Part shown: positions 3,315-40,172 of the stretch, piece by piece
How the letters are laid out: each line of letters begins with the position of its first letter
Numbering within the stretch: position 1 is the first letter of the stretch
Sequence record: NC_106514.1
Length of the DNA: 64,000 bases
Source of the DNA: Escherichia phage vB_EcoS_ESCO40
Strand: one strand, 5' to 3'
Notes under the pieces: generated by a model
Seen by the model: the letters and a program-made list of their open reading frames with translations, nothing else
Told to the model about the DNA's origin: nothing
The model's database searches: none
Program-made: the position numbers and the translations under genes

Positions 3315-3321
3315 CCTAAAA

Positions 3322-6078: not shown

Positions 6079-6107
6079 ATTATACAGAATTTTAAGGCTT
6101 AAAGCAA
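6079..6107 (-). promoter_or_regulatory. sigma70-type early promoter (T5 family)
   Basis: minus-strand TTGCTT-17-TATAAT with A-rich upstream tract. Confidence 0.6.
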
Positions 6108-6124
6108 CTGAATTTTTTAATTAC

Positions 6125-24865: not shown

Positions 24866-24894
24866 ATTATATTAGAAATTTAGCTTCATAGCAA
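24866..24894 (-). promoter_or_regulatory. sigma70-type promoter driving tRNA operon
   Basis: TTGCTA-17-TATAAT; tRNA-Ser begins about 8 nt after predicted start site. Confidence 0.6.
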
Positions 24895-25390
24895 GAAAAT
24901 TTTTCAAGTTTTCGGTAGACATCTCATCCACATCTACAGGAGAAACAAATCCATTTAATTGTCTAGCAAATTTTTCACCAGCAGGATCATTATCCCCAAC
25001 AGCTACCAATTTAAAAGGTAGTAATTTCAATTGCTTTAACAACGCTTTCCCGGGGGAAGAACCCAACATTGCTAGGGCAGGATAACCAGCGTTATGTAAC
25101 GCAACTGCCTTAAATACAGATTCAGCAATCAATACTACTTTTTCATCTCCATTGAGAGTTTCTAGTCCCCATACACACTGTGTAGTAGAATAAGTAAAAT
25201 ATCTAGCTTCAAGGGGGCACTTACCATGACCTTTTGGAGCAGAAGGATTATAAGTCTGATAGCCTCTCAACATCCCAGAGAAGTCATACAATGGGACTGT
25301 TAGCCATCCTTCCGGACTTAACCAGCAATGATATTTATCTGTATCAAACCCTCTAGATAAGAGATGTTCTGTTAGTTCATCAACAGTCAT
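24872..25390 (-). CDS. Toprim-domain protein (about 172 aa)
   Basis: C-terminal VLIAE...VGDNDPAGEK resembles the Toprim E...DxD signature; track start 25441 lies in the promoter -35. Confidence 0.5.
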   Translation of the reverse strand: MTVDELTEHLLSRGFDTDKYHCWLSPEGWLTVPLYDFSGMLRGYQTYNPSAPKGHGKCPLEARYFTYSTTQCVWGLETLNGDEKVVLIAESVFKAVALHNAGYPALAMLGSSPGKALLKQLKLLPFKLVAVGDNDPAGEKFARQLNGFVSPVDVDEMSTENLKNFLAMKLNF

Positions 25391-25420
25391 ACTAGATTCC
25401 TCTCTCAAATTTATAAATAT

Positions 25421-25449
25421 ATTATACAGAGAATTTAGCATTCAAGCAA
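25421..25449 (-). promoter_or_regulatory. sigma70-type early promoter (T5 family)
   Basis: TTGCTT-17-TATAAT. Confidence 0.6.
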
Positions 25450-25565
25450 TTGAATTTTTTAACTTTTTAGAGGAAAATCATAGGATGCTTAAGGGTAGCA
25501 GATAAGTGGTGAGTACCGAAATTTGTGACCCCACTAAAAATCTGGGGGCAATTTTTAAAGACCCC

Positions 25566-25594
25566 TTGACATTTTCGCCGGGGTAGTGTAAAGT
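25566..25594 (+). promoter_or_regulatory. sigma70 promoter of the opposite-strand island
   Basis: TTGACA-17-TAAAGT on plus strand, unlike the surrounding TTGCT family. Confidence 0.5.
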
Positions 25595-25656
25595 ATATGT
25601 TATGGATGAGTGATCAAAGAGACACACATTTTCTATATACTAGGAGGTGTCAAAAA

Positions 25657-26637
25657 ATGACAGAAGAAGTAGCTAAGAATCCTGAGACCGTCGCTAGCGT
25701 AGCAGCAGAACTGCATCGTCACGAGGAATCAGATAAGAAAAAGTGGGAGAAAGTTAAAGCCTACGAAGAAGAACATCGTGAACACGATGATAAAGATGAA
25801 GAAGATGACGATGATGAACATTGTCATAAATATGGAAAACATAAAATGCAAGAACCAGTAAACGTATTTACTAACGGCTTCCCGGGCATGGGTGCATTCC
25901 CAGCTAACGCAAGTGCTTTCGGTGGAGAAGGTATGGGTCTATTCGGCGCTATCCTAATCGGTGCTCTATTAACAGGCGGATTTGGTGGTTTTGGTGGTTT
26001 TGGTCGCGGTGCTGGCGTTGCCGCTGAAGGGACTGCTGTGGACGCGATCCTTTCTAACCAAGATACTGCAAGTATTCTAGCTGCAATCAATACTACTCGT
26101 ACAGAAGCTAATCAGGGCACTGGGGCTGTTCTAAGCGCAGTAAACGGTGTGGGAGCTGCTCAAGCTGCTAGCACTCAGCAAGTTCTGACTACTATCTACG
26201 GTACAGGTGCTAATCTGTCAAACCAGATCTGTGCTGAAACTCGTAACGTTATTCAGGGTCAGTTCGATCTTTCTCGTCAGATGGATCAATCTTTCGCTGC
26301 TAACCAGATAGCACGTGCTCAAGATAAGTTTGACTCTGCTCAGATTGCTTTCCAGCAATCTATTCAGACTAATAACCAGTTCGCCGCTGTTCAGGCTCAG
26401 ATGTGTGCTAACCAGAACGCTATCGAACGTCAGCTTGCTGAATGTTGCTGTGAGCTTCAGACTGCAATCGCTGGTGTAACTACTGCACGTATCCAGGACG
26501 AACTGAATGAATGCCGTCTGCGCGAAGCAATCGCTGCAGGTAGTGGTGCAAATGGTCAGGTAATCAACCAAATCGCTGTAAGTCTTGGTGCTATCACTCA
26601 GACTCTGGCTGGTCTGCAGGCTAAACTGCCGGCTTAA
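25657..26637 (+). CDS. low-complexity protein: acidic/His-rich N-terminus, glycine-zipper hydrophobic segment, Ala/Gln/Asn-rich C-terminus
   Basis: RBS AGGAGGTG before ATG at 25657 (track start 25597 unsupported); segment LFGAILIGALLTGGFGGFGGFG; codons biased to cgt/ctg/ggt. Confidence 0.65.
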   Translation: MTEEVAKNPETVASVAAELHRHEESDKKKWEKVKAYEEEHREHDDKDEEDDDDEHCHKYGKHKMQEPVNVFTNGFPGMGAFPANASAFGGEGMGLFGAILIGALLTGGFGGFGGFGRGAGVAAEGTAVDAILSNQDTASILAAINTTRTEANQGTGAVLSAVNGVGAAQAASTQQVLTTIYGTGANLSNQICAETRNVIQGQFDLSRQMDQSFAANQIARAQDKFDSAQIAFQQSIQTNNQFAAVQAQMCANQNAIERQLAECCCELQTAIAGVTTARIQDELNECRLREAIAAGSGANGQVINQIAVSLGAITQTLAGLQAKLPA

Positions 26638-26658
26638 ACTTAAGGGGAGGAGCCCATT

Positions 26659-27075
26659 ATGAGTAAATATGGTTTTGTAAACAACGGATTTAATCAACAA
26701 ATGGGCTCCCAGCAGCCCGTTCCGGGACTGGATAACCCTTACCTACAACAGTTGCAACAGCGTTTAGCAGAAGCGCAACAGATGCAGCAACAACTCCAGC
26801 AAAACCCTGGAAGTGTGAGTCCTATGCAAATGATGCAGCAAATGAGCGGGCAGTCACAAATGCCTCAACAAATGCAGCAACAGGTGCCTCAGCAGCAAGT
26901 TCAGCAACAAACCCAACAACCGCAGGTTTCTGTGGAAGGACAGGCAGTACTAGCCCTTTTCGAAGATTTCGCAAAGACAGAGGATGGGAAACAGCTTGTA
27001 TCACTTATGGGTAAGTTTAATAGCTTCTGCCAAAGCCAAGTTGCAAAAGCTCAAAATGGTGGTAATAACTCCTAA
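26659..27075 (+). CDS. Gln-rich protein (138 aa)
   Basis: RBS AAGGGGAGGAG; poly-Q tracts (QQMQQQLQQ, QQMQQQVPQQQVQQQTQQPQ). Confidence 0.6.
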   Translation: MSKYGFVNNGFNQQMGSQQPVPGLDNPYLQQLQQRLAEAQQMQQQLQQNPGSVSPMQMMQQMSGQSQMPQQMQQQVPQQQVQQQTQQPQVSVEGQAVLALFEDFAKTEDGKQLVSLMGKFNSFCQSQVAKAQNGGNNS

Positions 27076-27084
27076 GGAGGAATT

Positions 27085-27279
27085 ATGTGTTGCAGAAAAT
27101 CTGTTTCGTGCTGCCCAATGCCTGTAGCATGTTGTTGCTCTCCAGCAATGTTTACACAAATACCGGCGTTCAATCCCTTTGCCTTTAAGCCTATTCTTAT
27201 CCTGCCCCCTAGAGTAGATTTTCAGTCAAGATTGGCCTCCCGTATGGGTGGTTGCTGTAACAAGAGTATATGGTTCTAA
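27085..27279 (+). CDS. Cys-rich small protein (64 aa)
   Basis: RBS AAGGAGG; N-terminus MCCRKSVSCCPMPVACCC, C-terminal GGCC. Confidence 0.5.
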   Translation: MCCRKSVSCCPMPVACCCSPAMFTQIPAFNPFAFKPILILPPRVDFQSRLASRMGGCCNKSIWF

Positions 27280-27295
27280 AGAACCAATAATAAAA

Positions 27296-27329
27296 AGCCC
27301 CTAGTCGAAAGACTTAGGGCTTTTCTTTT
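27296..27329 (+). terminator. intrinsic terminator of the island
   Basis: Hairpin with GAAA loop followed by TTTTCTTTT. Confidence 0.55.
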
Positions 27330-27339
27330 ATCTTAAATA

Positions 27340-27375
27340 CAGAAAAGCCCTGCGCTCTCCAGGGAACGCAGGGCT
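27340..27375 (-). terminator. intrinsic terminator (convergent)
   Basis: Perfect 9-bp stem agccctgcg / cgcagggct with U-run on minus strand after the SPFH gene. Confidence 0.6.
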
Positions 27376-27399
27376 TACTTCGAATATTACGTGTGGGTA

Positions 27400-30440: not shown

Positions 30441-30745
30441 TCATATTCAACACGATTGGGGTTTTCTTTGTACCCTAAGTCAAGCAAATCATTACGCATA
30501 TGTTGCTTAGCTACTGGGTTCGAGGTTACTAGTACCACTTTCTTTGGTCTCTGCCCAAATTCTAAGAGTAAACGAAGAATTTGATAACCTTCCATACCAT
30601 CTACAGCCAAGTCATTATCCATATAAACGAAGTGGCCTGTGGTATCAGTTTTATTCAGAAACTCTACAGCGGCTTCTGGGGTTCGAATGATAATGTCCAT
30701 TCCGGGAAGATTACGCACATCATCAATCAAAATATGAAAAGTCAT
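30428..30745 (-). CDS. hypothetical protein (105 aa), receiver-domain-like
   Basis: Acidic pocket ILIDD / YMDNDL followed by a Lys; weak resemblance only. Confidence 0.45.
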   Translation of the reverse strand: MTFHILIDDVRNLPGMDIIIRTPEAAVEFLNKTDTTGHFVYMDNDLAVDGMEGYQILRLLLEFGQRPKKVVLVTSNPVAKQHMRNDLLDLGYKENPNRVEYDWQE

Positions 30746-30775
30746 AATAGCCTCGTTTCATCAATTTAAAAATAT

Positions 30776-30804
30776 ATTATACAGATAACTTAATAAATTA
30801 GCAA
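30776..30804 (-). promoter_or_regulatory. sigma70-type early promoter (T5 family)
   Basis: TTGCTA-17-TATAAT. Confidence 0.6.
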
Positions 30805-31187
30805 ATACATTTTTAAATTGTGAAACTAGTAAACCGATAAACAGCCTAGAGGCGCCACAGGCCATATCTTATGAGCCATGTACCTTTGATCTAGGGTTTG
30901 AATCATCAACGAATACTTTGCATCTTTTAGCTTTAGAAGTTTAGAAGTTTGAGTTCTTTAAACTTTTCAGCTTTCATACTTAAATGTTGATCTTTGAAGT
31001 TGTGTCGGTAATATCAACGACGCTTTGTTCTTACGTGTCAGCTTAAAAGGCTGGTGTAATAAACATAATCTCCAATAGATTATACTTTATAGTATGGTCA
31101 GCGGTCTTATTTAACCTCGTATTTCAACCGCTGCTGCGAGGTAAGATGCTTGGGCTTTCGTCTACCGATTTACTAGCTTTTAAATTA

Positions 31188-31826
31188 TTACTCTACTTCA
31201 ATAAAGGTAGAGGCGTTAGACTCGGACAGAACAAAGTCAACATTTGTTGCAAAGTCCTGGTATTCCTCGTCATGCTGCTTAATCAGCTTCTCCAGTTCCA
31301 GCGGATCAATCAAGAATGGAGTATTCTTGAGTTCTAGCAGGTTGAGCTGCATTTTAACTTCATCTTCGGAAGTTTTCTTATCGCGGGTAGCCATGCTATC
31401 CTGCAAACGCTCATATTTAGCATCAAACTGTGCTTTCTGCGTATTAAACTTAACCGTAGCGGCATGGAACTGCTTACGCATGTTAGCCAACAGCTGAGCT
31501 TTAAGCTCCATAGAACGCTTAGCTTCAATTGCTTCCGCAACAGTCATCTTACGAGAGCCAATCTCAACGATTGTTTCCGCATTGCTCTTAATCAGAGCAG
31601 CTTTGATACAATCACGCTGGGACATCATATCTAGGAGAGATTGGAAATCTGCCTTAATACGAGCAGATAGATCGTCTACTTCGATTGCAGCGCCAACTAC
31701 AACCTTATTTTTATCCTTACCTTCACCAACAGCGATCAGAAGCTGTTGTTCAGTAGCTTTACGGATTTTAGCTTCCAGAGATTTGATAGTTGCCAGAGCG
31801 CGAGTTTTAGAAATACGAGTAGTCAT
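31188..31826 (-). CDS. coiled-coil protein (212 aa), high-expression codon usage
   Basis: Charged heptad-like sequence; cgt/ctg/gct codon bias. Confidence 0.55.
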   Translation of the reverse strand: MTTRISKTRALATIKSLEAKIRKATEQQLLIAVGEGKDKNKVVVGAAIEVDDLSARIKADFQSLLDMMSQRDCIKAALIKSNAETIVEIGSRKMTVAEAIEAKRSMELKAQLLANMRKQFHAATVKFNTQKAQFDAKYERLQDSMATRDKKTSEDEVKMQLNLLELKNTPFLIDPLELEKLIKQHDEEYQDFATNVDFVLSESNASTFIEVE

Positions 31827-31879
31827 TATTTGCTTCCTTATATGAAGTTTGAGATTTGAATTTGTTTAAATTTGATCTA

Positions 31880-32062
31880 TTACAGACCAATTGCCAGCAG
31901 AGTGCGCAGAACAGTATCATTACTGTTATCAATTTTAGGATTAGCACGATTTAACAGATCAAAGATTTTCTGGATACCTGATTGACGTTCAGCCATACGA
32001 CGGATACCCAGATTACGAGTAGCTTTCTTACCATTTTTACGAACATTTTTAGATACTGGCAT
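31880..32062 (-). CDS. small basic protein (60 aa)
   Basis: RBS AAAGGAAAAC; Lys/Arg-rich. Confidence 0.45.
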   Translation of the reverse strand: MPVSKNVRKNGKKATRNLGIRRMAERQSGIQKIFDLLNRANPKIDNSNDTVLRTLLAIGL

Positions 32063-32101
32063 ATTTGTTTTCCTTTTATTGTTTTCTCAAATTTATGAAT
32101 A

Positions 32102-32130
32102 TATTATACAGAATTTTGGAGCCGGAAGCA
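32102..32130 (-). promoter_or_regulatory. sigma70-type early promoter (T5 family)
   Basis: TTGCTT-17-TATAAT. Confidence 0.6.
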
Positions 32131-32132
32131 AA

Positions 32133-32834
32133 TCAAATTTTCATTTTTTCGATCATAGCTGCAACACAATAGCTTTCAACTAAGGCATCAAATGCAGGAT
32201 CATGCTTAACCGGATAGATCCCATAACGAATGGTGTCCATCTTCTCCATTTTAGCTATTGCCCAGCTAATACCTTCGGTCTCTAGAGCCTTATAACTGTA
32301 TCCAGCTTGCATCCAGAGATTACGAAGAGATCGAACATTACCCAAATTCCAGAATTTCCACGGAACTACCTCTTCATTGGTTCCAGCATGGAAAGTGTTT
32401 GCAGAGTAGATAGTCATATCAAACTCTGGGCCATTGCCATAATACAAAGCATTTTCGCCTAGAGCCAACTCCATAATATTTTGAGCCATAGAGAAGGCAG
32501 CATAGTTAGAGCCAAGTTTATTAGTACAATGATGTTTACCATTTTGGAAGGCAATCAGTTTTGGATTACGCTCGTTCATAGCTTCCATAATGTGGATAGC
32601 AGACGGGCTATTTTTAGCTTGATCCATCCAGAATGCTAGAGTAGATGCTGTAACTTTGGCACCAGAATTAAGCTGATCTTGCACATCCAAAGTAACAAAT
32701 ACTAGATTAGGGTCTTTATCAATCCCATGCATAGCCACAAAAGCGAAAGAAGGCATTACGATATGAGTAGTACCACAATCCCCTGGAGTTCCTAGAGATT
32801 CAATATCTAACATACCAAATGGTTTTACTTTCAT
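32133..32834 (-). CDS. DEDDh-type 3'-5' exonuclease-like protein
   Basis: N-terminal MLDIESLG (D-x-E) and C-terminal HDPAFDA (H-x4-D) motifs. Confidence 0.5.
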   Translation of the reverse strand: MKVKPFGMLDIESLGTPGDCGTTHIVMPSFAFVAMHGIDKDPNLVFVTLDVQDQLNSGAKVTASTLAFWMDQAKNSPSAIHIMEAMNERNPKLIAFQNGKHHCTNKLGSNYAAFSMAQNIMELALGENALYYGNGPEFDMTIYSANTFHAGTNEEVVPWKFWNLGNVRSLRNLWMQAGYSYKALETEGISWAIAKMEKMDTIRYGIYPVKHDPAFDALVESYCVAAMIEKMKI

Positions 32835-32862
32835 AACTTATCCTTTATTGCGTAGAAAACTA

Positions 32863-33099
32863 TTAAAGAGCTGTCTCTTTAATAGACTCCCACTTCTTGG
32901 GGTCTTTAAAACCAGGAAGCATATCTTCACTAACATCCCAGTTTTCTTCCATAGAAAAGTCTGGCCATTCATTCCAGCTATCTTCCAGTTCTTCGTAGCA
33001 GGTATCCATTACCTCATGACTAGAAAGTCGTGTATAATCTCTAGCGGACTTATGAGTGCTAGCACGGTTAAAATCATTCTTTGCTACAAAATTACGCAT
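32863..33099 (-). CDS. hypothetical acidic protein (78 aa)
   Basis: RBS TGGAGAAAC. Confidence 0.45.
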   Translation of the reverse strand: MRNFVAKNDFNRASTHKSARDYTRLSSHEVMDTCYEELEDSWNEWPDFSMEENWDVSEDMLPGFKDPKKWESIKETAL

Positions 33100-33140
33100 A
33101 GTTTCTCCAAATAAGAGGGGCTTTCGCCCCCTGACTTAAA

Positions 33141-33356
33141 TTATTTGCCCAGCAGTTTAAGGATATTTTCCATAATAGTTTGGGCAGATTTTTCACTCTT
33201 GTTGGTTTCAGCCAACTTTAAAGCGAGTTCTTCCTGCTGTTTCTGAATATCAGCAGCAATTTTCTGATCAGCCTCGATACGAGCTTGAAGTTCATCAGTG
33301 ATAGTAGTAAAGGAAGCAACGATTTCAGTAACGGAACGTGGTTTCTTGGAGAACAT
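33141..33356 (-). CDS. small coiled-coil protein (71 aa)
   Basis: Flanked on both sides by identical GGGGC-GAAA-GCCCC hairpins. Confidence 0.45.
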   Translation of the reverse strand: MFSKKPRSVTEIVASFTTITDELQARIEADQKIAADIQKQQEELALKLAETNKSEKSAQTIMENILKLLGK

Positions 33357-33415
33357 AAAAATATCCTTGATTAGTTAGAGAGCTAGTTGACTGTAGGGGC
33401 TTTCGCCCCTATCTA

Positions 33416-33931
33416 TTACTTCGCTTTACGTTTACGAGCTGGTTTAGCAGATTTACGAGCGGAATCGCCCGTGAATTTAATACCTACACCATAACACAGA
33501 GCACGAACGTTATCTTTGCTATATTCTACACCAAAGATATTTGGCTTAACAGAACCAAACTGTCCACGAGTATCACGCAATACATCTGCTGTTGGTTTAC
33601 GCTTCTGGTTAACTGCCTTCTCATAGTCTTTCATAGACATACCATTACGAGAGAACAATTCAGCCCCAGCGTTGAAGCTCAGGGAAACTGGGACAGATTT
33701 GTGGCCGTAATTTTCTACATACATAACCATTTTGTAGGATTTACGGGTAGCATTTTTAGCTTTAGGCTTCTGACGAATCGGAGCCGGATTATTCAGTGCT
33801 TGTGCAGCCTGAGCATCGGTAGGATGCTTACGCAGGTGACGTTCCAGGCGAGCTTTGCGATTAGCCTCAGTCTTCGGGAAAGTTTTAACTGCCGGAGCTG
33901 CTTGAGTTTTTGCGTTTTTCTGCTTAGCCAT
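33416..33931 (-). CDS. basic protein (171 aa), high-expression codon usage
   Basis: Lys/Arg-rich termini. Confidence 0.55.
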   Translation of the reverse strand: MAKQKNAKTQAAPAVKTFPKTEANRKARLERHLRKHPTDAQAAQALNNPAPIRQKPKAKNATRKSYKMVMYVENYGHKSVPVSLSFNAGAELFSRNGMSMKDYEKAVNQKRKPTADVLRDTRGQFGSVKPNIFGVEYSKDNVRALCYGVGIKFTGDSARKSAKPARKRKAK

Positions 33932-33969
33932 TATTTATTTTCCTTTTTGTTTATCAATTTATGAAGTAT

Positions 33970-33998
33970 ATTATACGAGAATTTGAAGCGTTTAGCAA
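33970..33998 (-). promoter_or_regulatory. sigma70-type early promoter (T5 family)
   Basis: TTGCTA-17-TATAAT. Confidence 0.6.
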
Positions 33999-34014
33999 AT
34001 GAATTTTTTAAAAA

Positions 34015-34293
34015 TTATCTACCAACCATCTTAGCTTGTTCGGCATCTGAGACATATTGATACGCTCCTTTATTATACGCTGGAGCAGTACACATTTTCT
34101 TACGCTCAATCTCTTCTTGAGCTTTTCTTTCGCGTTCAGCTAATTCTTCGTCCAGATAAACTAAACGTTGTTCTGGAGGAGGTGGAAGACGTGTTTCTGG
34201 CTCACCAATATTAGCCTTTCTTATTTGACGAGGTGATTGTGCACGTTTTCTCAATGGTTTAAATCCTAATGAATTTGAGTTATAAATTCGCAT
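34015..34293 (-). CDS. hypothetical protein (92 aa)
   Basis: ORF. Confidence 0.45.
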   Translation of the reverse strand: MRIYNSNSLGFKPLRKRAQSPRQIRKANIGEPETRLPPPPEQRLVYLDEELAERERKAQEEIERKKMCTAPAYNKGAYQYVSDAEQAKMVGR

Positions 34294-34318
34294 AAAGCCC
34301 CCTCACTTTCAATACGAA

Positions 34319-34347
34319 TATTATACTAAATTAAAGGGCTTTAAGCA
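34319..34347 (-). promoter_or_regulatory. sigma70-type early promoter (T5 family)
   Basis: TTGCTT-17-TATAAT. Confidence 0.6.
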
Positions 34348-34368
34348 AGAAAATTTTTAATTTATTTA

Positions 34369-34857
34369 TCACATCTCAGCCATTTCAGCTTCAGTAATAA
34401 CTGTATTACATAGTGCATCTACAGCTTCATTACCACTAATTCCTGAGTGCCCTTTTACTTTAATAAAAGTAGGATTAGTATTGTGGAAGTTAATGTATTG
34501 CTGAGTTAATTTAAATGCTTCTTGCCAAAGTTCTAGATTAAGAGGGATTTCACCATCTGCTTTCTTCCAGCCTTTCTTTTGCCAAGAAAACATCCAACTT
34601 TCCATACCATTTTTGCAATAAGCAGAGTCAGTATATATAATAATTGGTCTATTATCTTTTTTAACGGACCAACGTAGAGCTTCTACAATAGCTGTGAGTT
34701 CCATCTCATTATTTGTAGTTTTAGGACTATAACCAGATTTAGAGCCTAAACGATCGTCGTTATCATCATAGACAATAAAACCCCAAGCACCCGGGCCAGG
34801 GTTGGACTTACAAGCACCATCTGTGTAAATGTGGAAAACCGACATTATACCTCCCAA
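34369..34857 (-). CDS. rnhA: ribonuclease H
   Basis: N-terminal IYTDGACKSNPGPGAWG RNase HI signature. Confidence 0.8.
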   Translation of the reverse strand: MGGIMSVFHIYTDGACKSNPGPGAWGFIVYDDNDDRLGSKSGYSPKTTNNEMELTAIVEALRWSVKKDNRPIIIYTDSAYCKNGMESWMFSWQKKGWKKADGEIPLNLELWQEAFKLTQQYINFHNTNPTFIKVKGHSGISGNEAVDALCNTVITEAEMAEM

Positions 34858-35126
34858 CTAATTTTAAGACCTATGTCTACAAAGGCGGCTTCTCGGTAGT
34901 ATTGTGAGAGATGATACCCCTTATCCGATAAGGTTTTTAGTACCGATTTAGCGGCTCCTGGCATTTCTCTAGGATTATATAGCCACCTAGCGTAAGGATT
35001 ATCTCGAATAATTACTTCTGTATTTCCAGACTTAGCAGCTTCTACAATCTTTTCTTCTATAAACTTTAGAAATGCGGGTACTTCTGTTAATCCTGCAAGT
35101 TCTTGGGCTTCTTTGGCTGAAATCAT
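34845..35126 (-). CDS. hypothetical protein (93 aa)
   Basis: ORF. Confidence 0.5.
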   Translation of the reverse strand: MISAKEAQELAGLTEVPAFLKFIEEKIVEAAKSGNTEVIIRDNPYARWLYNPREMPGAAKSVLKTLSDKGYHLSQYYREAAFVDIGLKISWEV

Positions 35127-35148
35127 TGTATACCTCCAATTTATAAAA

Positions 35149-35177
35149 TATATTATATTTAAATTTCACTAAATAAG
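35149..35177 (-). promoter_or_regulatory. sigma70-type early promoter (T5 family)
   Basis: TTGCTT-17-TATAAT. Confidence 0.6.
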
Positions 35178-35180
35178 CAA

Positions 35181-35210
35181 ATGAAATTTAAATATAATAG
35201 CCCCGAAGGG
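35181..35210 (-). terminator. intrinsic terminator
   Basis: AGCCC-UUCG-GGGCU hairpin plus U-rich tract after thyA stop. Confidence 0.6.
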
Positions 35211-35219
35211 CTATTTAAG

Positions 35220-36059
35220 TTAAGAGGACATTTTAGCTTTAAGAGCTGGATGAGGATCGTACCCCTCTAAATGGAATGACCAAGCTGCCGTATTATTTTC
35301 TAGTAAGTCGTAAAGATCTACAAACTCTGGCATTACTAGAGTTGGCAGAGGGCGTGGCTTGCGTTTTACCTGTTCTTCTACCTGTTCCATGTGGTCATTA
35401 TAGATATGAGTATCACCGCCACTAAAGATAAGATAACGAGGTTTTAATCCTGTCAGTTTTGCTAATATATGCGTTAATAAAGCATAACTAGCAATATTGA
35501 AAGGTAAACCGAGGAAACAATCCACAGAGCGTTGTGTCCATTTAAGATCTAGGTATCCATCGTTACTTACATAGCACTGGAAGCCATAGTGACATGGTGG
35601 TAATGCCATTTTATCAAGTTCAGCTACGTTCCACGCAGAAACTAGGTGTCTACGACCATGTGGATTATTCTTGAGTCCCTCAATGAGTTCTAAAATCTGA
35701 TCTCGTCCGCCAAAGTTGCGCCATTGTTTACCATATACTGGTCCTAGATTACCATTGTCATAACCCATGCTTATAGCTTGGTCTTCATAATTTGGGGTCC
35801 AGATGGTCCACTGTCCTTCGTCACGACCAAATGTGAATACACGTAGATCATGAAGATTTGTGGAACCAGACAAGAACCATAAAAGTTCTCCTACTACTGA
35901 TTTCCAGGCCAGGCGTTTAGTAGTTACAGCCGGGAACCCTTCACGTAAATCGAACTTAGCATAGGAATCAAAAATTGAAACTGTGCCTGTTCCTGTACGG
36001 TCATTACGGGGTTCACCTAGTAAAATTACATCTGTCAAAATTTTTAAGTATTGTTGCAT
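35220..36059 (-). CDS. thyA: thymidylate synthase
   Basis: Active-site region ALPPCHYGFQCYV and YGKQWR motifs. Confidence 0.85.
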   Translation of the reverse strand: MQQYLKILTDVILLGEPRNDRTGTGTVSIFDSYAKFDLREGFPAVTTKRLAWKSVVGELLWFLSGSTNLHDLRVFTFGRDEGQWTIWTPNYEDQAISMGYDNGNLGPVYGKQWRNFGGRDQILELIEGLKNNPHGRRHLVSAWNVAELDKMALPPCHYGFQCYVSNDGYLDLKWTQRSVDCFLGLPFNIASYALLTHILAKLTGLKPRYLIFSGGDTHIYNDHMEQVEEQVKRKPRPLPTLVMPEFVDLYDLLENNTAAWSFHLEGYDPHPALKAKMSS

Positions 36060-36592
36060 TAATAAGTAACCAATTCCTGTACAAATCGCAGGCTGTTATC
36101 ACTGTTTGCGCCAACTGCATAGACTAATCGGGTGGATTCATAGTTATAATCCAGTATCATACTATCTAGGTGTATATCTGCCTCTAGCTTCTGTTCGCTA
36201 AAGATTGTAGATACAAAAGCACTTTCTATATGCCCATGTTGGTACATTTCTAGAAGAAGATTAGCTCCGCCTAGAACTACTGTTTGCTGATCTTTTAGAA
36301 AGGTAGGTAATGTATCACCTATCATTGATATGGGAGTGTAAATATCATGTGTAATATCGTCTGGCAATGGACGATCAGCACGAATAAATAGGTCAGAAGC
36401 TCCAATCATACGTTCCCTAACGGCATATGGAAGAGCTAAATAAGTACCAGCACCAATGATGATGTTATCTGGATTCAACACGTCCAGTTGAGAATAGAAA
36501 GCATCTAGTTCTTCTTTGAAGGAACCCCATGGAAGTTTACCACGGAGGCCGAACTCCCCATTCGGCCCAACTGCATATATTGCTGTAATCAT
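36059..36592 (-). CDS. frd: dihydrofolate reductase
   Basis: N-terminal IYAVGPNGEFGLRGKLPW; coupled to thyA and nrdB. Confidence 0.75.
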   Translation of the reverse strand: MITAIYAVGPNGEFGLRGKLPWGSFKEELDAFYSQLDVLNPDNIIIGAGTYLALPYAVRERMIGASDLFIRADRPLPDDITHDIYTPISMIGDTLPTFLKDQQTVVLGGANLLLEMYQHGHIESAFVSTIFSEQKLEADIHLDSMILDYNYESTRLVYAVGANSDNSLRFVQELVTY

Positions 36593-37734
36593 AAGAAATC
36601 TCCAAATTCATTACCCAGATCTTTCAGAGTATCAGTAGAGGTCTCAGTTACCTGACCTACACGGTAAGCTGCACCAATCTGGATTTCTTGCGGAGCAGGC
36701 TGTAGAGAAGTAGTATCCAACCAGTTCATGATCCACGGAATAGGGTTTTTGGTGATTACAGGCAGATTACTTGGCCATTCTACACCGATGTGCATAAATG
36801 CATTGCGCCCCACAAAGTACAGATATTCTTCTAGAAGTTCTGCATTCAAGCCAATCAGACTACGACCTTTGAAAATGAAATGACCCCATTCAATTTCAGT
36901 TTTCAGAGTTTTCAGGAGCTGTGCTGGTGCTTTAGCCACTGCCTCATCTACCAGATCTTTGTCAAATTGCTGAAACATAATCTGGATGATTGCTTTGGAC
37001 ATCTGAGTGTGCAGAGCTTCATCTTTAGCGATTAATTGCAGATTTTTAGCAATACCTTGCAGAATATCGTTCTCTGCTAATGCAAAGGTACATGCAAAGG
37101 ATGCGTAAAACTGCATTGCTTCCAGACCATAGATCGCAAAGTAAGCGTCTAATAGTTTAGCCTGAGTTTCACGTTTAACTTCAGGGAACTCAGTTTCTGG
37201 ATATGTATTGTCGCCACGATGATCGCGTACTGCAATGAAATACTGACCTAACTGGTACAGTTCATCGAATAGTTCAACAGAATCAGCGATGCGTGCGAAT
37301 GCTTCCTGGTTTTTGGTTACAGAATCAATAAATTCTGCTGGATCAGTCAACACATTACGAATAATATTACTATATGCACGGCTATGCAGATCTTCGAAGT
37401 AGCTCCACTGCTTGAGCATACCTTCCAATTCTGGACGACTTACAAGCGGCATAATAGCTGCTTCAGGAGCACGACTGATAAAGGAATCTGTTTGGGTCTG
37501 CCATGCTAAGTTCAGGAGTGTAATTTCCTGAATTTCACGTGGGAGGTTGGGCCATTGTTTCTTATCTGCTTCCAGACTGATTTCAGTTTCAGTCCAAAAT
37601 TGAGAGCGTTGCAGAAGTGCCAGACGCTCTAATTCTGGATGTGCTACACGCACATAATCTGCGATACCTAGAGAATCGCCCAGGAAAAGATCAGCGTTAG
37701 TATGATCCCAATTCAGGTTTAGTAAAGTAGTCAT
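36589..37734 (-). CDS. nrdB: ribonucleotide reductase small subunit (class I)
   Basis: Length and di-iron R2-like sequence; adjacent to large subunit. Confidence 0.8.
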   Translation of the reverse strand: MTTLLNLNWDHTNADLFLGDSLGIADYVRVAHPELERLALLQRSQFWTETEISLEADKKQWPNLPREIQEITLLNLAWQTQTDSFISRAPEAAIMPLVSRPELEGMLKQWSYFEDLHSRAYSNIIRNVLTDPAEFIDSVTKNQEAFARIADSVELFDELYQLGQYFIAVRDHRGDNTYPETEFPEVKRETQAKLLDAYFAIYGLEAMQFYASFACTFALAENDILQGIAKNLQLIAKDEALHTQMSKAIIQIMFQQFDKDLVDEAVAKAPAQLLKTLKTEIEWGHFIFKGRSLIGLNAELLEEYLYFVGRNAFMHIGVEWPSNLPVITKNPIPWIMNWLDTTSLQPAPQEIQIGAAYRVGQVTETSTDTLKDLGNEFGDFL

Positions 37735-37765
37735 TGATTTTCCTCTTTCTCACTATTTCAGGAAT

Positions 37766-37794
37766 ATTATAGCAAATCAGGTAGCGATTAGCAA
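37766..37794 (-). promoter_or_regulatory. sigma70-type early promoter (T5 family)
   Basis: TTGCTA-17-TATAAT. Confidence 0.6.
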
Positions 37795-37804
37795 GTAAAA
37801 TTTC

Positions 37805-37832
37805 AAAGAAAAAGGAGACCCGAAGATCTCCT
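37805..37832 (-). terminator. intrinsic terminator
   Basis: aggaga / tctcct stem with U-run after nrdA stop. Confidence 0.55.
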
Positions 37833-37840
37833 TGTTTTTA

Positions 37841-40172
37841 TTAAATAGTACAACCACCGGATGCACAACCTGCTGCTTCTTCTCCAGCACCTCCACCATT
37901 TGCGGTATTGAAGTTAGCATAATACCAAGTTTTCCACCCATACTTAACAGCAGTCATGAAATCACGAACTACTACTGGGCCAGGAATAATTTCATTCTCA
38001 AACTTGGTGTAGTCATAGTACATATTCGTGCTGATAGACTGACTGAAGAATTTCTGCATAGTTGCTACCCATTTGATCCACTCGATACGATCTACATCAT
38101 AAGCCAATTTATAGCTCATTAACGTTTCCCAATCGGTTGCACCTGGAGCAATTGCAATTACTTTATTTACTGCACTACCTTTGATAGATACAATCTTACG
38201 AGGTGGTTCGATAGAGTTAGTAACACCTAACAGAACAGAAGAACTTTCTCCCGGCATCTGAGCAGTCAGAACAGAGTTACGCATACCATATTTCATAATA
38301 TCTGCACGCAGAGACTCCCAATCCATTTCTAGACCTACGGATACCAGTTCATCAACAGTTTTCTTGTACGTGTCGATTACCAGAATTCCTTTAGATGGTT
38401 TAGTACGATCAAACCACTCACATGCGCCCTGTTCTTTAGCCAGGCGTACGGAGGCTTTATGCAGGAAGTAAGATAGTTTTTCAGCCTCACGGTGGATCCA
38501 GTTACGAGCTTCAATACCTTCGTAAGCCAGACCTTCTGCTGCCATTGCACCTGCTGCGTTCATTAGTCCAATACCAACATTACGACGTTTCTTAGCCGTA
38601 TATTCCATAGTTGGGAACGGATAATCCTGAATTTCAATAATTGTATCAACGAATTTCAGAAGGATGTAGCAAGTTTTTTCCCACTCAGCCAGAGATTCCA
38701 TGCGTCCTAGTACAACACCACCTAAGTTGCACAGAGATACTTCACCAATATCCTCCGGCTTCATTTGATCAAGTTGTTCTTTTGTTTTATACAGTTCCGT
38801 GATATGATGGAACGGACGTGTAGGCTGAGTAATTTCAACACAAAGGTTTGTCATACGGATCGGATCAAGGAAGTTACCGTGACGATTAGATTCCCCGATG
38901 TGGTGAGCATACATACGTCCTGTTTCCATTCGGATACGTAGCCAAGTATCTAGGATTTCTTTTGCAGAGACTTTAGGAGCTGCTGGAACTGTTTTTCCTT
39001 CGTGGTCGATCTTTGTAAGAGATGCCACACGTTTCTCCGCTGCCACATAGATTTCTTCAAATTTAGCCTCGTCATCACTATAAAACGCTTCATGAACTTC
39101 TGGAGCATAGAAGTATGACATTAGCGTAATATCTTCATTTTTCAGATAACGTTTTAACAAAAGATTGTTGAAGCTCAGAGAATAATCCATCTTATCGATT
39201 TTATTCTCATCTGTAGCACGTTGCTGCTTAACCTGCATCAATTGAATGATTTCAGGGTCAAAGTATGGATAAGACACTGTAGCAGAACCACCACGAGTTT
39301 GCTGAGTATTGGCCTTTACTGAGCGGTCAATGTGTCGATAATATGGCAGTTTTCCGGAATGCGGGAATGCCCCATTTCGCACCGGATCAGCAATTGATCG
39401 GCTTTCAAGATGATACCCGATTCCCGCTCTGGCTGCGACCATTTTGAAGACGATGTGCTCGGCTGTGTCGATTGAATCCAATGTGTCAGTGGAATCCACG
39501 AGGCAACAACTAGCAAATCCACGATCACTAGAGCGCAAGCCAACCAATGGCGGCGTAGGAATGTTGATTTTGTGTAGCGACATTGCGTTGTAGAGGTCGA
39601 TTGCATCTAGAATTGTCCAATTAGGTTGAGATAACATCGCCATTGCCATACCCATATAGGCGAATTGCGGGGTTTCGTAAATTTCGCCAGTTGCGATATT
39701 ACGACGGGAATACTTATCAAAGAATTGTTTCAATCCTCCGCTAGTGAAAAGACGGTCGCGATCATGGTCGATAACCTGATTCAGAGCTTCAAATTGCTCA
39801 TCGGTAATCCATGCACTCATGTCTTCCCATGCACCTACACTAACCATATGATCGTGGAAGAAGCGTAGAGAAGGTGGTTCGAAGGAATCATAAAGGCGTT
39901 TACGCATCTGCGCAAGACGTAATTCCTTTGCTGGCACGTCGTATGCTGGATTATCTTTGATAAGACTTTCAGCAGCTTTAATTAAAGCATCCATCAGAGT
40001 GTCGGAATCTACAACCCCTTTAGGCAGAGTTTTTTGAGCAGCCATAGTAATGGCTGACCAACTTACATCAACTGTTTTGCAGCCATACTCTGCCCAACCA
40101 TTGAGTTTTTCAGGAGCAAAGTCTTCTACAGTACCGTCACGTTTAATTACTTTTTCAATGCGATGGCTCATT
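37841..40172 (-). CDS. nrdA: ribonucleotide reductase large subunit (class I)
   Basis: N-terminal ATP-cone (RVIKRDGT...); start at ATG 40172 with RBS AAGGAAAA rather than track start 40276. Confidence 0.85.

What the first reader, a model, noticed from the sequence alone, without database searches (positions are those of the whole stretch)
25540..27390. Opposite-strand three-gene island encoding Gly-zipper, poly-Gln and Cys-rich proteins
In a block of more than 40 kb where every other gene is on the minus strand behind TTGCT-17-TATAAT promoters, three plus-strand ORFs sit behind their own TTGACA-17-TAAAGT promoter, each with a strong RBS, and end at a hairpin facing the terminator of the convergent SPFH gene. 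The products are low-complexity: (i) acidic/His-rich N-terminus (EEHREHDDKDEEDDDDEHCH), a glycine-zipper hydrophobic segment (LFGAILIGALLTGGFGGFGGFG) and an Ala/Gln/Asn-rich tail; (ii) a poly-Q protein; (iii) a 64-aa protein opening MCCRKSVSCCPMPVACCC. G+C is visibly higher than the flanks and codons are high-expression-like, but the same bias occurs in other genes here (31188-31826, 33416-33931, 55329-56096), so this suggests high expression rather than foreign origin. I recognise none of the three proteins; a membrane-active, metal-binding or condensate-forming host-takeover or anti-defence role is possible.
Basis: partly seen in the sequence, partly recalled or inferred. Interest (0 to 1): 0.8.

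Follow-up and report, generated by a model that had tools for sequence, protein, structure and literature searches.

The report
Mobile three-gene cysteine-rich membrane module
The three opposite-strand genes are real: they are T5 genes T5.077, T5.078 and T5.079, a dispensable, self-contained cassette of unknown function that travels intact between unrelated phage lineages and belongs to no characterised protein family.

Summary
The window is a T5-like phage, about 98% identical to BF23. The island equals T5.077/078/079 (BF23 "ORF 326aa/138aa/64aa") behind the annotated promoter P12, ending at an intrinsic terminator.

New findings:
- The triad is a conserved module. All three genes recur in the same order in Pseudomonas siphovirus KPP23 (third gene annotated in the wrong frame), two divergent ~110-kb phages and a lambdoid-like contig.
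- It is accessory. About half of 440 T5-like records lack it through at least two independent deletions. CRISPRi-ART scores all three genes "Not Fit". The viable variant T5Mos has lost P12 and the 5' half of T5.077. The BF23 virion proteome lists none of the products.
- ORF1 belongs to a wide, unnamed, mostly viral family (401 cluster representatives). It has a Gly-zipper hydrophobic segment, about 190 residues of amphipathic helix (3.65-residue period) and a near-invariant A-x-CCC-E-[LI]-K motif.
- ORF3 is a genuine peptide with vicinal Cys pairs.
- A conserved internal Met with an SD-like motif suggests a second, shorter ORF1 isoform.

There are no Pfam, NCBIfam, PADLOC, PDB or Foldseek matches. 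The best guess, held at low confidence, is a membrane-anchored, thiol- or metal-linked helical scaffold used in phage competition or defence interplay.

The parts
25424..25433 (.). Left copy (ATACAGAGAA) of the short imperfect direct repeat that bounds the cassette-sized deletion seen in AKFV33
   Evidence: Junction alignment of AKFV33 against the window, read against the sequence
25566..25594 (+). Promoter P12: TTGACA-17-TAAAGT, followed by the discriminator ATATG
   Evidence: Consensus scan, 10 of 12. Annotated as P12 in T5 and BF23. The same design is conserved in L076 (TTGACA-17-TAAAGT) and L075 (TTGACA-17-TAGAGT). The ATATT discriminator of T5 early promoters is described in PMC7472727.
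25657..26637 (+). ORF1 (= T5.077, BF23 'ORF 326aa'). It has an N-terminal helix at residues 9-41, an acidic/His-rich linker, a Gly-zipper hydrophobic segment at residues 92-116, and three long amphipathic helices at 136-163, 171-273 and 276-323.
   Evidence: PHROG 8119, E = 1.6e-197. AF2 model with 103 sequences, pLDDT 70-82 over the helices. Hydrophobic periodicity of 3.65 residues, reached by 0 of 500 shuffles. Fop z = +2.5.
25846..25848 (+). Conserved internal ATG (Met64), a candidate second start that would give a 263-aa isoform colinear with the short family members
   Evidence: The Met aligns with the start Met of the short homologues. It is conserved, mostly with a GGAG/GAGG-type motif 7-9 nt upstream (further in L076, weak GGAA in the T5 type), in the T5-type, L075, L076, L077 and KPP23 genes although the upstream residues differ. 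Inferred, not shown.
25930..26004 (+). Gly-zipper hydrophobic segment (residues 92-116, GMGLFGAILIGALLTGGFGGFGGFG), the presumed membrane anchor
   Evidence: KD19 = 1.72 and KD10 = 2.60. 133 of 140 family members have such a segment, median 21 uncharged residues, with K+R mostly on the C-terminal side (81 members against 10). AF2 does not model it as a helix.
26443..26451 (+). Codons for the Cys triplet (residues 263-265, AECCCEL), the signature motif of the family
   Evidence: The three Cys are the only fully conserved residues across the 52- and 103-sequence alignments. CCC is present in nearly all profile hits. In the model it lies just before the 274/275 turn.
26659..27075 (+). ORF2 (= T5.078, 'ORF 138aa'): Q-rich (28% Gln overall, 43% in residues 12-90), with a conserved C-terminal domain ALFxxFAxTEDGKQLVxxxGKFNxFCQS containing one invariant Cys
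   Evidence: PHROG 7894. 126 homologues, found on T5-like-sized contigs, including contigs that also carry ORF1 relatives. 47% identical to KPP23 ORF073. Counterparts in L075, L076 and L077.
27085..27279 (+). ORF3 (= T5.079, 'ORF 64aa'): a Pro-rich peptide with four conserved vicinal Cys pairs (residues 2-3, 9-10, 17-18, 57-58). It has no lipobox and no signal-peptide-like hydrophobic region.
   Evidence: pN/pS is 0.43 in frame against 0.60-1.04 in the other five frames, and the CC pairs are invariant in 11 sequences. Counterparts: KPP23, unannotated frame L015:6969-7151; L075, L076, and L077 'RCCPMPVPRCCG...GGCCGLI'. Present in 220 phage records but mostly unannotated. No lipobox.
27293..27329 (+). 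Intrinsic terminator of the operon: hairpin 27293-27324 followed by a U-run
   Evidence: RNA fold, dG -17.3, followed by UUUUCUUUU. Annotated as bidirectional terminator ter1 in T5 and BF23.
27337..27346 (.). Right copy (ATACAGAAAA) of the short direct repeat that bounds the AKFV33-type deletion
   Evidence: read against the sequence

Best explanation
The island is a self-contained accessory expression cassette (a 'moron') with its own strong sigma-70 promoter, three translationally well-signalled genes and its own terminator. It has moved between unrelated phage backbones and is repeatedly lost.

Proposed mechanism, mostly inferred:
- ORF1 is made in large amounts early in infection. It is held at the host inner membrane by its Gly-zipper hydrophobic segment.
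- Its roughly 190-residue amphipathic helical rod, and the Cys triplet at the rod's distal turn, lie on the cytoplasmic side.
- ORF2 (a Q-rich spacer plus a small conserved domain with one Cys) and ORF3 (a Pro-rich peptide with vicinal Cys pairs) have no export signals. They join ORF1 there through their conserved cysteines, as a shared metal-thiolate site or as thiol cross-links. Together they form a membrane-bound scaffold.
- A conserved internal start may yield a short ORF1 isoform without the charged 63-residue N-terminal extension. This could modulate insertion or assembly.

The scaffold is not needed for replication, assembly or lysis in a laboratory host. Its likely pay-off is in the wild: changing the infected cell's envelope or membrane-associated processes in competition with other phages or with host defences.

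Shown: the anatomy, conservation of the triad, dispensability, absence from virions, and family features.
Inferred: membrane location, topology, complex formation through the cysteines, expression timing, and biological role.
For: Autonomous unit:
- The promoter, three SDs and the terminator are all present.
- The promoter design is conserved in L075 and L076.
- In every lineage the unit is a small island opposite to its neighbours.
- In L077 it lies antisense between antiterminator Q and the holin.

One functional module:
- ORF1, ORF2 and ORF3 keep the same order in T5-like phages, KPP23, L075, L076 and L077, at 35-55% identity.
- ORF1 and ORF3 occur in 221 and 220 phage records with near-identical organism counts.
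- ORF2 relatives lie on T5-like-sized contigs, including the same contigs as ORF1 relatives.

Accessory:
- About 220 of 440 T5-like records lack it. AKFV33 and S114 have different deletion end points, and S114 keeps a remnant of the ORF3 3' end.
- CRISPRi-ART scores all three genes 'Not Fit' (PMC11879866 supplement).
- The viable variant T5Mos has a deletion, 30661-38625, that removes P12 and the 5' half of T5.077 (PMC11464382).

Not in virions: none of the products is listed in the BF23 virion MS table or text (PMC10644984).

Membrane anchor and cytoplasmic rod:
- The uncharged segment has a median of 21 residues in 133 of 140 relatives. K+R are more frequent on the C-terminal side in 81 members against 10.
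- ORF2 and ORF3 have no signal peptide or lipobox.
- Cys counts show no bias towards even numbers (104 odd, 95 even).

Rod: helices with pLDDT 70-82 and 3.65-residue amphipathic periodicity.

Cysteines as the functional core: CCC is the only invariant feature of the family. The ORF2 Cys is invariant. The ORF3 CC pairs are conserved.

High ORF1 expression: Fop z = +2.5.

Internal start.
Against: - No experiment or homology links the proteins to any function. The role in competition or defence is an argument from dispensability and genomic position only.
- There are no PADLOC hits.
- Topology is uncertain. The T5-type ORF1 has a 91-residue N-tail (net charge -12, with 12 K+R) that would be hard to export. 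This favours N-in/C-out for this protein, the opposite of the family-wide trend.
- AF2 does not model the hydrophobic segment as a helix, so it may not span the membrane at all.
- Most distant ORF1 relatives have no recognisable ORF2 or ORF3 partners, so the CCC motif does not require them.
- Complex formation and metal binding were not tested. No multimer prediction was possible.
- The 'early' timing rests on annotation and promoter sequence, not on data seen here.
Confidence: 0.3

Rival explanations
1. Periplasmic rod. ORF1 inserts N-in/C-out, so the helical rod and its Cys triplet are in the oxidising periplasm and form intermolecular disulfides. The complex spans or occupies the periplasm. 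It could block incoming DNA of superinfecting phages (like T4 Imm/Sp) or act as an auxiliary spanin- or fusion-like device.
For: - The T5-type N-tail is long and highly charged, with 12 K+R, which favours keeping it in the cytoplasm.
- The architecture (anchor plus long helices plus Cys, with a small Pro/Cys-rich partner) resembles the Rz/Rz1 spanin pair.
- Two independent family profiles give weak hits to class I fusion subunits (HEF2, HA2, S2), aligned from the fusion peptide. The 'GLFGAI' hexamer is shared with HA2 (my own recollection of the HA2 sequence).
- In L077 the module lies beside the lysis cassette.
Against: - A canonical T5-type i-spanin is already present at 13017-13457 (Kongari 2018 supplement).
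- ORF3 has no lipobox or signal peptide and ORF2 has no signal peptide, so the partners would be in a different compartment.
- The family-wide charge bias points to C-in.
- Cys counts show no bias towards even numbers.
- All PDB E-values are 0.0025 or worse.
- The helical periodicity is 3.65, not the heptad value of 3.5.
- Knock-down has no lysis or fitness effect.
- One family member lies in a prophage-like region next to Firmicutes-type genes, where spanins make no sense.
Confidence: 0.2
2. Cytoplasmic condensate or filament. The Gly/Phe-rich segment (GLFG, GGFG) and the poly-Q protein drive phase separation or filament formation. The result is a cytoplasmic compartment or matrix, cross-linked through the Cys-rich peptide, rather than a membrane complex.
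For: - The low-complexity FG-like and Q-rich sequences are conserved in kind: Q makes up 43% of ORF2 residues 12-90.
- AF2 leaves residues 54-129 unstructured.
- A paralogue in L014 has a Gly/Tyr-rich N-terminus instead of the hydrophobic segment.
- Weak PDB hits include keratin and vimentin rods.
- ORF3's CC-P motifs resemble those of keratin-associated proteins (my own recollection).
Against: - The conserved core of the segment is a run of strongly hydrophobic aliphatic residues (ALLIGALLF, WWIIILLIF) of transmembrane length in most relatives, unlike FG-nucleoporin repeats.
- The Q-rich part of ORF2 is poorly conserved in sequence and shrinks in L075 and L076 (106-107 aa), while the C-terminal domain is conserved.
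- Disulfide cross-links are not expected in the reducing cytoplasm.
Confidence: 0.1
3. Metal handling. The module sequesters or delivers a thiophilic metal (Cu, Zn, Cd) during infection. ORF3 would act as a metallothionein-like peptide, and the His/acid-rich N-terminus and CCC of ORF1 as further sites.
For: - ORF3 is 14% Cys, arranged in vicinal pairs.
- The CCC motif is invariant.
- Many T5-like ORF1 proteins carry His-rich tracts such as HHYHHHHHEHY.
Against: - The His-rich tract is absent from KPP23, L075, L076 and the whole short family.
- ORF3 counterparts in L075 and L076 keep only two CC pairs.
- Nothing in the neighbourhood relates to metal transport.
- A 190-residue rod and a Q-rich protein are not explained by metal storage.
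Confidence: 0.1
4. Minor virion or assembly component, for example a decoration or fibre protein that is not needed for plaque formation.
For: - Distant relatives lie near tail-fibre, collagen-like and head-tail connector genes in two myoviruses and in the 472-kb contig.
- In KPP23 the module abuts the terminase and head genes.
- Long helical rods are common in fibres.
Against: - The proteins are not listed in the BF23 virion proteome.
- KPP23 ORF074 is not among the genes labelled 'virion protein'.
- In T5-like phages the cassette sits in the tRNA region behind a promoter annotated as early, far from the structural genes.
- The hydrophobic anchor is conserved.
Confidence: 0.04

Closest known systems
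Phage T5 genes T5.077, T5.078, T5.079 (BF23 ORF 326aa/138aa/64aa) with promoter P12 and terminator ter1
   Same: They are orthologues, with 96-98% DNA identity, the same order and the same regulatory signals.
   Different: Nothing substantive. These records call the products hypothetical proteins, and some call ORF2 a 'cAMP-dependent protein kinase catalytic subunit', which is unsupported. No function has been published that I could find.
Lambdoid 'morons' (autonomous promoter-gene-terminator units such as bor and lom, or the stx position between Q and the lysis genes)
   Same: The cassette has its own promoter and terminator, lies opposite to or independent of the surrounding transcription, is dispensable, has a patchy distribution and occurs on unrelated backbones. 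In L077 it sits between antiterminator Q and the holin.
   Different: Most carriers are virulent phages, so a benefit to lysogens cannot be the general rationale. 'Moron' describes a genetic organisation, not a mechanism.
Two-component spanins (lambda Rz/Rz1; the T5-type i-spanin/o-spanin pair)
   Same: Both have a membrane-anchored helical protein with functionally conserved cysteines, together with a small Pro- and Cys-rich partner.
   Different: The phage already has a canonical spanin. ORF3 lacks a lipobox. The genes are neither embedded nor overlapped, are not linked to the lysis genes in T5, and have no fitness effect. The charge bias suggests the opposite topology.
Class I viral fusion subunits (influenza HA2/HEF2, coronavirus S2)
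   Same: Both have a Gly-rich hydrophobic peptide (GLFGAI...) followed directly by long N/Q/A/S/T-rich helices. These are the recurrent top hits of two family profiles against the PDB.
   Different: The E-values are not significant (0.0025 or worse). Foldseek gives no hit. The helical periodicity is 3.65, not 3.5. There is no signal peptide or ectodomain, and the phages concerned are not enveloped. I treat this as a resemblance of composition and architecture only.
Dual-start membrane proteins of phages (lambda S107/S105 holin-antiholin)
   Same: ORF1 has a conserved in-frame internal Met with an SD-like motif. The upstream extension carries charge that would oppose N-out insertion of the adjacent hydrophobic segment.
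   Different: The extension is 63 residues rather than 2. ORF1 is far larger than holins, with a 190-residue helical domain. The internal initiation is only inferred.
N-terminally anchored cytoplasmic helical scaffolds (EzrA, ZipA) and 11-residue-repeat amphipathic helices (apolipoproteins, alpha-synuclein, perilipins)
   Same: Both have a single N-terminal anchor, a predicted C-in orientation, and a long amphipathic helix with about 3.65-residue periodicity.
   Different: There is no sequence or fold match. The comparison rests on my own knowledge of those families, and they have no Cys triplet.

Membership tests
PHROG 8119 / PHROG 7894 (unannotated phage protein families) | Full-length profile match | tested here: met
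   ORF1 matches PHROG 8119 (E = 1.6e-197, profile positions 1-332 of 332). ORF2 matches PHROG 7894 (E = 7.9e-80). Both have 'unknown function'. ORF3 matches no PHROG. Distant ORF1 relatives also hit PHROGs 9288 and 16490, both unannotated.
Gly-zipper/CCC helical protein family (unnamed, defined here) | N-proximal uncharged Gly-rich hydrophobic segment of about 21 residues | tested here: met
   Residues 92-116 in ORF1. Present in 133 of 140 aligned relatives.
Gly-zipper/CCC helical protein family (unnamed, defined here) | A-x-CCC-E-[LI]-K motif in a long helix near the C-terminal third | tested here: met
   AECCCEL at residues 261-267. The CCC is near-invariant in the alignments and in most profile hits. 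The library holds 401 representatives at E <= 0.001.
Two-component spanin (i-spanin + o-spanin) | o-spanin is an outer-membrane lipoprotein with a signal peptide and a lipobox Cys | tested here: not met
   ORF3 has no [LVI][ASTVI][GAS]C lipobox and no hydrophobic h-region (maximum KD10 of 1.76).
Two-component spanin (i-spanin + o-spanin) | i-spanin is N-in/C-out with a periplasmic coiled coil | tested here: inconclusive
   The family-wide K+R bias favours C-in (81 members against 10), but the long charged N-tail of the T5-type protein argues the other way. No experimental topology is available.
Two-component spanin (i-spanin + o-spanin) | It is the phage's spanin, that is, no other spanin is present and it is needed for the last step of lysis | tested here: not met
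   A canonical T5-type i-spanin is encoded at 13017-13457 (90% identical to the AKFV33 i-spanin; Kongari 2018 supplement). T5.077-079 are scored 'Not Fit'.
Class I viral fusion protein (HA2-like) | Statistically significant sequence or fold similarity | tested here: not met
   The best PDB E-values are 0.0025 (profile A2) and 0.026-0.06 (profile A5). Foldseek against the PDB gives 0 hits, and against BFVD nothing below E = 1.
Class I viral fusion protein (HA2-like) | Heptad (3.5-residue) repeat that forms a trimeric coiled coil | tested here: not met
   The dominant periodicity is 3.6-3.65 over residues 136-273, and the power at 3.5 is about half of that. The oligomeric state could not be tested.
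Known anti-phage defence systems (PADLOC-DB) | Match to any defence-protein model | tested here: not met
   No family matched ORF1, ORF2 or ORF3 at E <= 0.1.
Pfam / NCBIfam curated families | Match above the curated threshold | tested here: not met
   ORF1 and ORF3 have no Pfam hits. ORF2 has only sub-threshold low-complexity hits. NCBIfam gives nothing meaningful. 52 family members scanned individually gave nothing consistent.
cAMP-dependent protein kinase catalytic subunit (the name given to ORF2 in some GenBank records) | Protein kinase domain | tested here: not met
   No kinase family appears in the Pfam or NCBIfam scans. The protein has 138 residues, 28% of them Gln. The name is an annotation artefact.
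Virion structural proteins of T5-like phages | Detected in purified particles | tested here: not met
   Not listed in the BF23 virion MS/MS table or text (PMC10644984). This is literature evidence for a phage that is 98% identical, not for this exact genome.
Metallothionein-like metal-binding peptides | Binds metal through clustered cysteines | not testable with these tools
   Only composition is available: 9 Cys in 64 residues, in four conserved vicinal pairs.

The most novel reading that the evidence does not exclude
The Gly-zipper/CCC proteins are a widespread, so far unrecognised class of viral membrane proteins. In the T5/KPP23-type triad, the Cys triplet at the tip of a long amphipathic rod assembles with a Q-rich adaptor and a vicinal-Cys peptide into a metal- or thiol-bridged lattice on the host membrane. 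Insertion or activity would be set by a conserved dual-start (long and short isoform) switch. The lattice would give a new mechanism of superinfection exclusion or counter-defence that is invisible in standard laboratory infections.
Probability: 0.2. Interest if true: 0.8.

Novelty: categorically new. Interest (0 to 1): 0.55.

Why it matters
T5 is a model phage, and this is one of its most strongly signalled transcription units, yet it has no known function. This analysis turns three anonymous ORFs into a defined and testable object. The three genes move as a unit between Demerecviridae, Pseudomonas siphoviruses and a lambdoid-like phage. About half of the relatives have lost them, and they are dispensable in the laboratory. 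That pattern is typical of genes acting in phage-phage or phage-defence conflict.

The ORF1 family (hundreds of sequence clusters, mostly in uncultured viruses) has a simple diagnostic motif, Gly-zipper plus A-x-CCC-E-[LI]-K, and no structural or functional precedent. Solving one member would therefore annotate many genes.

There are practical corrections too:
- ORF3 is missing from most GenBank records and is annotated in the wrong frame in KPP23.
- ORF2's 'protein kinase' label is spurious.

If the function turns out to be mundane, the loss is small. If the cysteine-linked membrane scaffold is real, it is a new kind of phage accessory system.

Tried and rejected
1. Spanin hypothesis. Rejected as membership: the canonical i-spanin is at 13017-13457, ORF3 has no lipobox, and the genes are not needed.

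2. Homology to class I fusion proteins. Two profiles give recurrent HA2, HEF2 and S2 hits, but none is significant. There is no Foldseek support, and the periodicity is 3.65 rather than 3.5. Kept only as a resemblance.

3. Foreign origin judged from G+C. Rejected: GC3 is low, so the G+C rise is compositional. Mobility is shown instead by distribution.

4. Virion component. Disfavoured by the BF23 proteome.

5. Defence-system membership. No PADLOC hit.

7. The poly-Q protein next to the distant homologue in L004 as an ORF2 relative. BLASTP finds no similarity. A Cys-rich antisense ORF there is an artefact of the reverse complement of Gln codons.

8. Conserved partners of distant family members. 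None is consistent apart from a 97-99-aa beta-rich protein in two related myoviruses.

9. Genome-collection scan with the CCC motif. Only 3 of 48 hits were true members. The ORF2-based IMG/VR scan found only T5-like contigs.

10. The L077-type module in E. coli genomes. No match.

11. Literature searches by gene names, ORF numbers and transposon screens. Nothing beyond CRISPRi-ART, the PARIS paper and the BF23 paper.

Full report
WHAT THE WINDOW IS. The window is a T5-like phage (Demerecviridae, Tequintavirus). The 2.1 kb around the finding is 97-98% identical to phages ESCO30, BF23 and T5. The window carries 18 tRNA genes on the minus strand. The three ORFs are the genes annotated in T5 as T5.077, T5.078 and T5.079. 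In BF23 they are 'ORF 326aa', 'ORF 138aa' and 'ORF 64aa'. In both records they lie behind the annotated promoter P12 and in front of a 'bidirectional rho-independent terminator'. A T5 'major single-chain interruption' is annotated a few bases further on. All products are listed as hypothetical. One T5 record calls ORF2 a 'cAMP-dependent protein kinase catalytic subunit'.

CHECK OF THE OBSERVATION. The ORFs are at 25657-26637, 26659-27075 and 27085-27279. Their Shine-Dalgarno sequences are aggagg, ggggaggag and aaggagg, and the intergenic gaps are 21 and 9 nt.

TTGACA-17-TAAAGT lies at 25566-25594 and is the joint-best promoter-like site in the scanned stretch. Promoter-like sites as such are not enriched there (6 found, 7.2 expected).

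The operon hairpin at 27293-27324 folds with dG -17.3 and is followed by UUUUCUUUU. The convergent SPFH gene (Band_7, E = 2e-17) has its own hairpin at 27345-27376 with dG -26.1.

In a rough gene call the three are the only convincing plus-strand genes in the first 41.5 kb.

Codon bias is strong only for ORF1 (Fop 0.715, z = +2.5, among the top four of 97 ORFs). ORF2 and ORF3 are average. The raised G+C (0.45-0.47 against 0.386 +/- 0.035) comes with a low GC3 (0.33), so it reflects amino-acid composition.

ARE THEY REAL GENES? ORF1 has homologues down to 35% identity on contigs of about 110 kb. ORF2 has 126 homologues.

ORF3 is unannotated in most records, but it is present in 220 phage records at 84-98% identity. 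It keeps four Cys-Cys pairs in eleven sequences, and its own frame has the lowest pN/pS of the six frames (0.43 against 0.60-1.04).

THE TRIAD IS A CONSERVED, MOBILE MODULE. Pseudomonas siphovirus KPP23 (62.8 kb) has, side by side:
- ORF074, 51% identical to ORF1 over residues 143-324 including CCCEL.
- ORF073, 47% identical to ORF2, with the block ALFxxFAxTEDGKQLVxxxGKFNxFCQS.
- An unannotated 60-aa peptide, MCCNQPVPQCCGPF...GRCCKKFDCC, in a different frame from the annotated ORF072. Like ORF3 it has four CC pairs.

Three further divergent carriers were recovered from metagenomes: L075 (109.5 kb), L076 (113.9 kb) and L077 (a 24.8-kb contig). All three have ORF1, ORF2 and an ORF3-like peptide in the same order. 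The L077 peptide reads RCCPMPVPRCCG...GGCCGLI, compared with the window's SCCPMPVACCCS...GGCCNKSIWF. L076 and L075 keep the promoter design, TTGACA-17-TAAAGT and TTGACA-17-TAGAGT.

In every case the module is a small island opposite to its neighbours. L077 carries holin, lysozyme, Rz-type and antiterminator-Q genes, and there the module lies antisense between Q and the holin, the classic moron position. The L077 type was not found in E. coli genomes or in cultured phages other than the KPP23/RSP type.

IT IS ACCESSORY. The flanks match 440 T5-like records, but only about 214-221 carry the cassette.
- In AKFV33 the flanks are joined between two copies of a short imperfect repeat, ATACAGAGAA at 25424-25433 and ATACAGAAAA at 27337-27346. 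This removes the promoter, the three genes and the first hairpin.
- In Epseptimavirus S114 the deletion has different end points and leaves the last ~30 nt of ORF3 and both hairpins.

The cassette was therefore ancestral and has been lost at least twice.

Published data agree. The CRISPRi-ART screen of T5 lists T5.077, T5.078 and T5.079 as 'unknown function' and 'Not Fit' (PMC11879866 supplement). The viable variant T5Mos has a deletion, 30661-38625, that removes P12 and the 5' half of T5.077 (PMC11464382). The MS/MS inventory of BF23 virions lists none of the three products (PMC10644984).

WHAT ORF1 IS. There is no Pfam, NCBIfam, PADLOC or PDB sequence match. PHROG 8119 is unannotated.

An exhaustive profile search found 401 cluster representatives at E <= 0.001 and 65 at E <= 1e-10. 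Most are 240-290 aa long and match from the Gly-rich hydrophobic segment to the C-terminus. Nearly all contain a CCC triplet within A-x-CCC-E-[LI]-K, and many end in a tail like HLxPxxxVV. The three Cys are the only fully conserved residues in alignments of 52 and 103 sequences.

The family is mostly viral:
- Contexts include myoviruses of about 55 kb, a prophage-like region next to thrS, DUF1540 and HTS genes, and a 472-kb viral contig with four tandem paralogues.
- A motif scan of 185,579 species genomes gave only three true members.

With 103 sequences AlphaFold2 gives:
- A confident N-terminal helix at residues 9-41 (pLDDT 90-97).
- A low-confidence stretch at 54-129 that includes the hydrophobic segment.
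- Three long helices at 136-163, 171-273 and 276-323 (pLDDT 70-82), with the CCC just before the last turn.

Foldseek finds nothing in the PDB or BFVD. Conserved hydrophobic positions recur every 3.6-3.65 residues over 136-273, a value reached by 0 of 500 shuffles. This is amphipathic and hendecad-like rather than heptad.

TOPOLOGY. In 133 of 140 relatives there is an uncharged segment with a median of 21 residues after an N-tail with a median of 27 residues. Lys and Arg lie mainly on the C-terminal side (81 members against 10). By the positive-inside rule this weakly favours N-out/C-in.

ORF2 and ORF3 have no signal peptide or lipobox, and Cys counts in the family show no bias towards even numbers. 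Both points fit a cytoplasmic location for the Cys-bearing parts.

The T5-type protein is the exception. Its N-tail has 91 residues with net charge -12 and 12 K+R, and such a tail would be hard to export.

A possible resolution is the conserved internal Met (M64, 25846-25848), which aligns with the start codon of the short relatives. Upstream of it lies an SD-like motif, 7-9 nt away in most lineages, in T5-type, L075, L076, L077 and KPP23 genes, although the encoded residues differ. The gene may therefore give a long and a short isoform. This is inferred only.

HYPOTHESES CONSIDERED.
- Spanin-like role. It is attractive on architecture, but it fails. The canonical T5-type i-spanin is at 13017-13457 (Kongari 2018 supplement), ORF3 has no lipobox, and knock-down has no effect.
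- Class I fusion proteins. Two independent profiles hit HEF2, HA2 and S2 from the fusion peptide onward. The E-values are 0.0025 or worse, there is no fold support, and the periodicity is wrong.
- Condensate, metal-storage and virion readings. These are listed as rivals with their evidence.

BEST EXPLANATION. The cassette is an autonomous, mobile accessory unit. Its products most likely form a membrane-anchored helical scaffold held together through conserved cysteines. It acts on the infected cell rather than in the virion, and it matters only under natural competition or defence pressure. The anatomy, conservation, dispensability and family definition are shown. Location, assembly, timing and role are inferred. 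My confidence in the full model is about 0.3.

NOVELTY AND SCORE. The genes themselves have long been annotated, so their existence is not new. Their kind is new: no characterised family, fold or system matches, and the module character, the family signature, the true ORF3 and the putative dual start were not previously described in anything I could find. Interest is moderate to high (0.55). It is a well-defined and experimentally tractable unknown in a model phage, but there is as yet no phenotype.

Noticed in passing
window 27345-27376 (GCGC at 27352-27355): The stem of the SPFH gene's terminator contains the T5 nick consensus GCGC. It lies at the position annotated in T5 and BF23 as a major single-chain interruption ('nick 3, 32.6%'). 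The AKFV33-type deletion keeps this hairpin while removing the cassette.
   Followed up: partly
window 25846-25848 (Met64 of ORF1): A conserved internal ATG with an upstream SD-like motif is found in five independent lineages. It aligns with the start codon of the short family members, so ORF1 may be a dual-start gene giving 326-aa and 263-aa isoforms.
   Followed up: partly
L015 (KPP23, AB910392) 6969-7151, and most T5-like GenBank records: KPP23's annotated ORF072 (64 aa, GTG start) is in the wrong frame. The conserved product is a 60-aa MCC...CC peptide in another frame. The ORF3 equivalent is unannotated in most T5-like records ('none' under the tblastn hits).
   Followed up: yes
window 26659-27075: ORF2 is named 'cAMP-dependent protein kinase catalytic subunit' in several database records. 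No kinase domain is detectable, so the name looks like a poly-Q low-complexity artefact that has been propagated.
   Followed up: yes
window 24872-25441 (-): The upstream neighbour (T5.076-like, Toprim/primase-like) weakly matches a PADLOC DRT 'RTasDnaG-like' model (E = 1e-6). The CRISPRi-ART annotation table labels it 'subverts retron-mediated defense' and scores it Semi-Fit. In Epseptimavirus it is replaced by NadR-like and PnuC genes, while the cassette is kept.
   Followed up: partly
L014 (IMG/VR 472-kb contig) 2726-6251: Four tandem paralogues carry the ECCCELK motif but mostly lack the Gly-zipper. One has a Gly/Tyr-rich N-terminus and one a CPPP-repeat C-terminus. They lie next to a collagen-like repeat protein. 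The contig may be a giant virus or a megaphage.
   Followed up: no
L004 6855-7148 and L018 5847-6146: In two related myoviruses of about 56 kb, the distant ORF1 homologue is followed by a conserved 97-99-aa beta-rich protein (MxSPI...TxxxIVxxNxRRxxLxLQNxG). This may be a different partner in that subfamily.
   Followed up: no
window 13017-13457 (-): The canonical T5-type i-spanin is encoded here (90% identical to the AKFV33 i-spanin listed by Kongari et al. 2018).
   Followed up: yes
window 55329-56096 (+), 33416-33931 (-), 52001-52411 (+): These ORFs have the strongest E. coli-like codon bias in the window (Fop z = 3.8, 2.5 and 2.4). The BF23 paper reports that protein D5 is very abundant in lysates, and the first ORF might be D5. 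I did not verify this.
   Followed up: no
window ~41500: GC skew and gene orientation switch sign here, from minus-strand genes before to plus-strand genes after. This marks the divergence point of the two large transcription blocks.
   Followed up: no
window 25939-25956 (ORF1 residues 95-100): The hexapeptide GLFGAI is identical to the N-terminus of the influenza HA2 fusion peptide (from my own memory of that sequence). Family profiles repeatedly but non-significantly hit HA2, HEF2 and S2 chains.
   Followed up: yes
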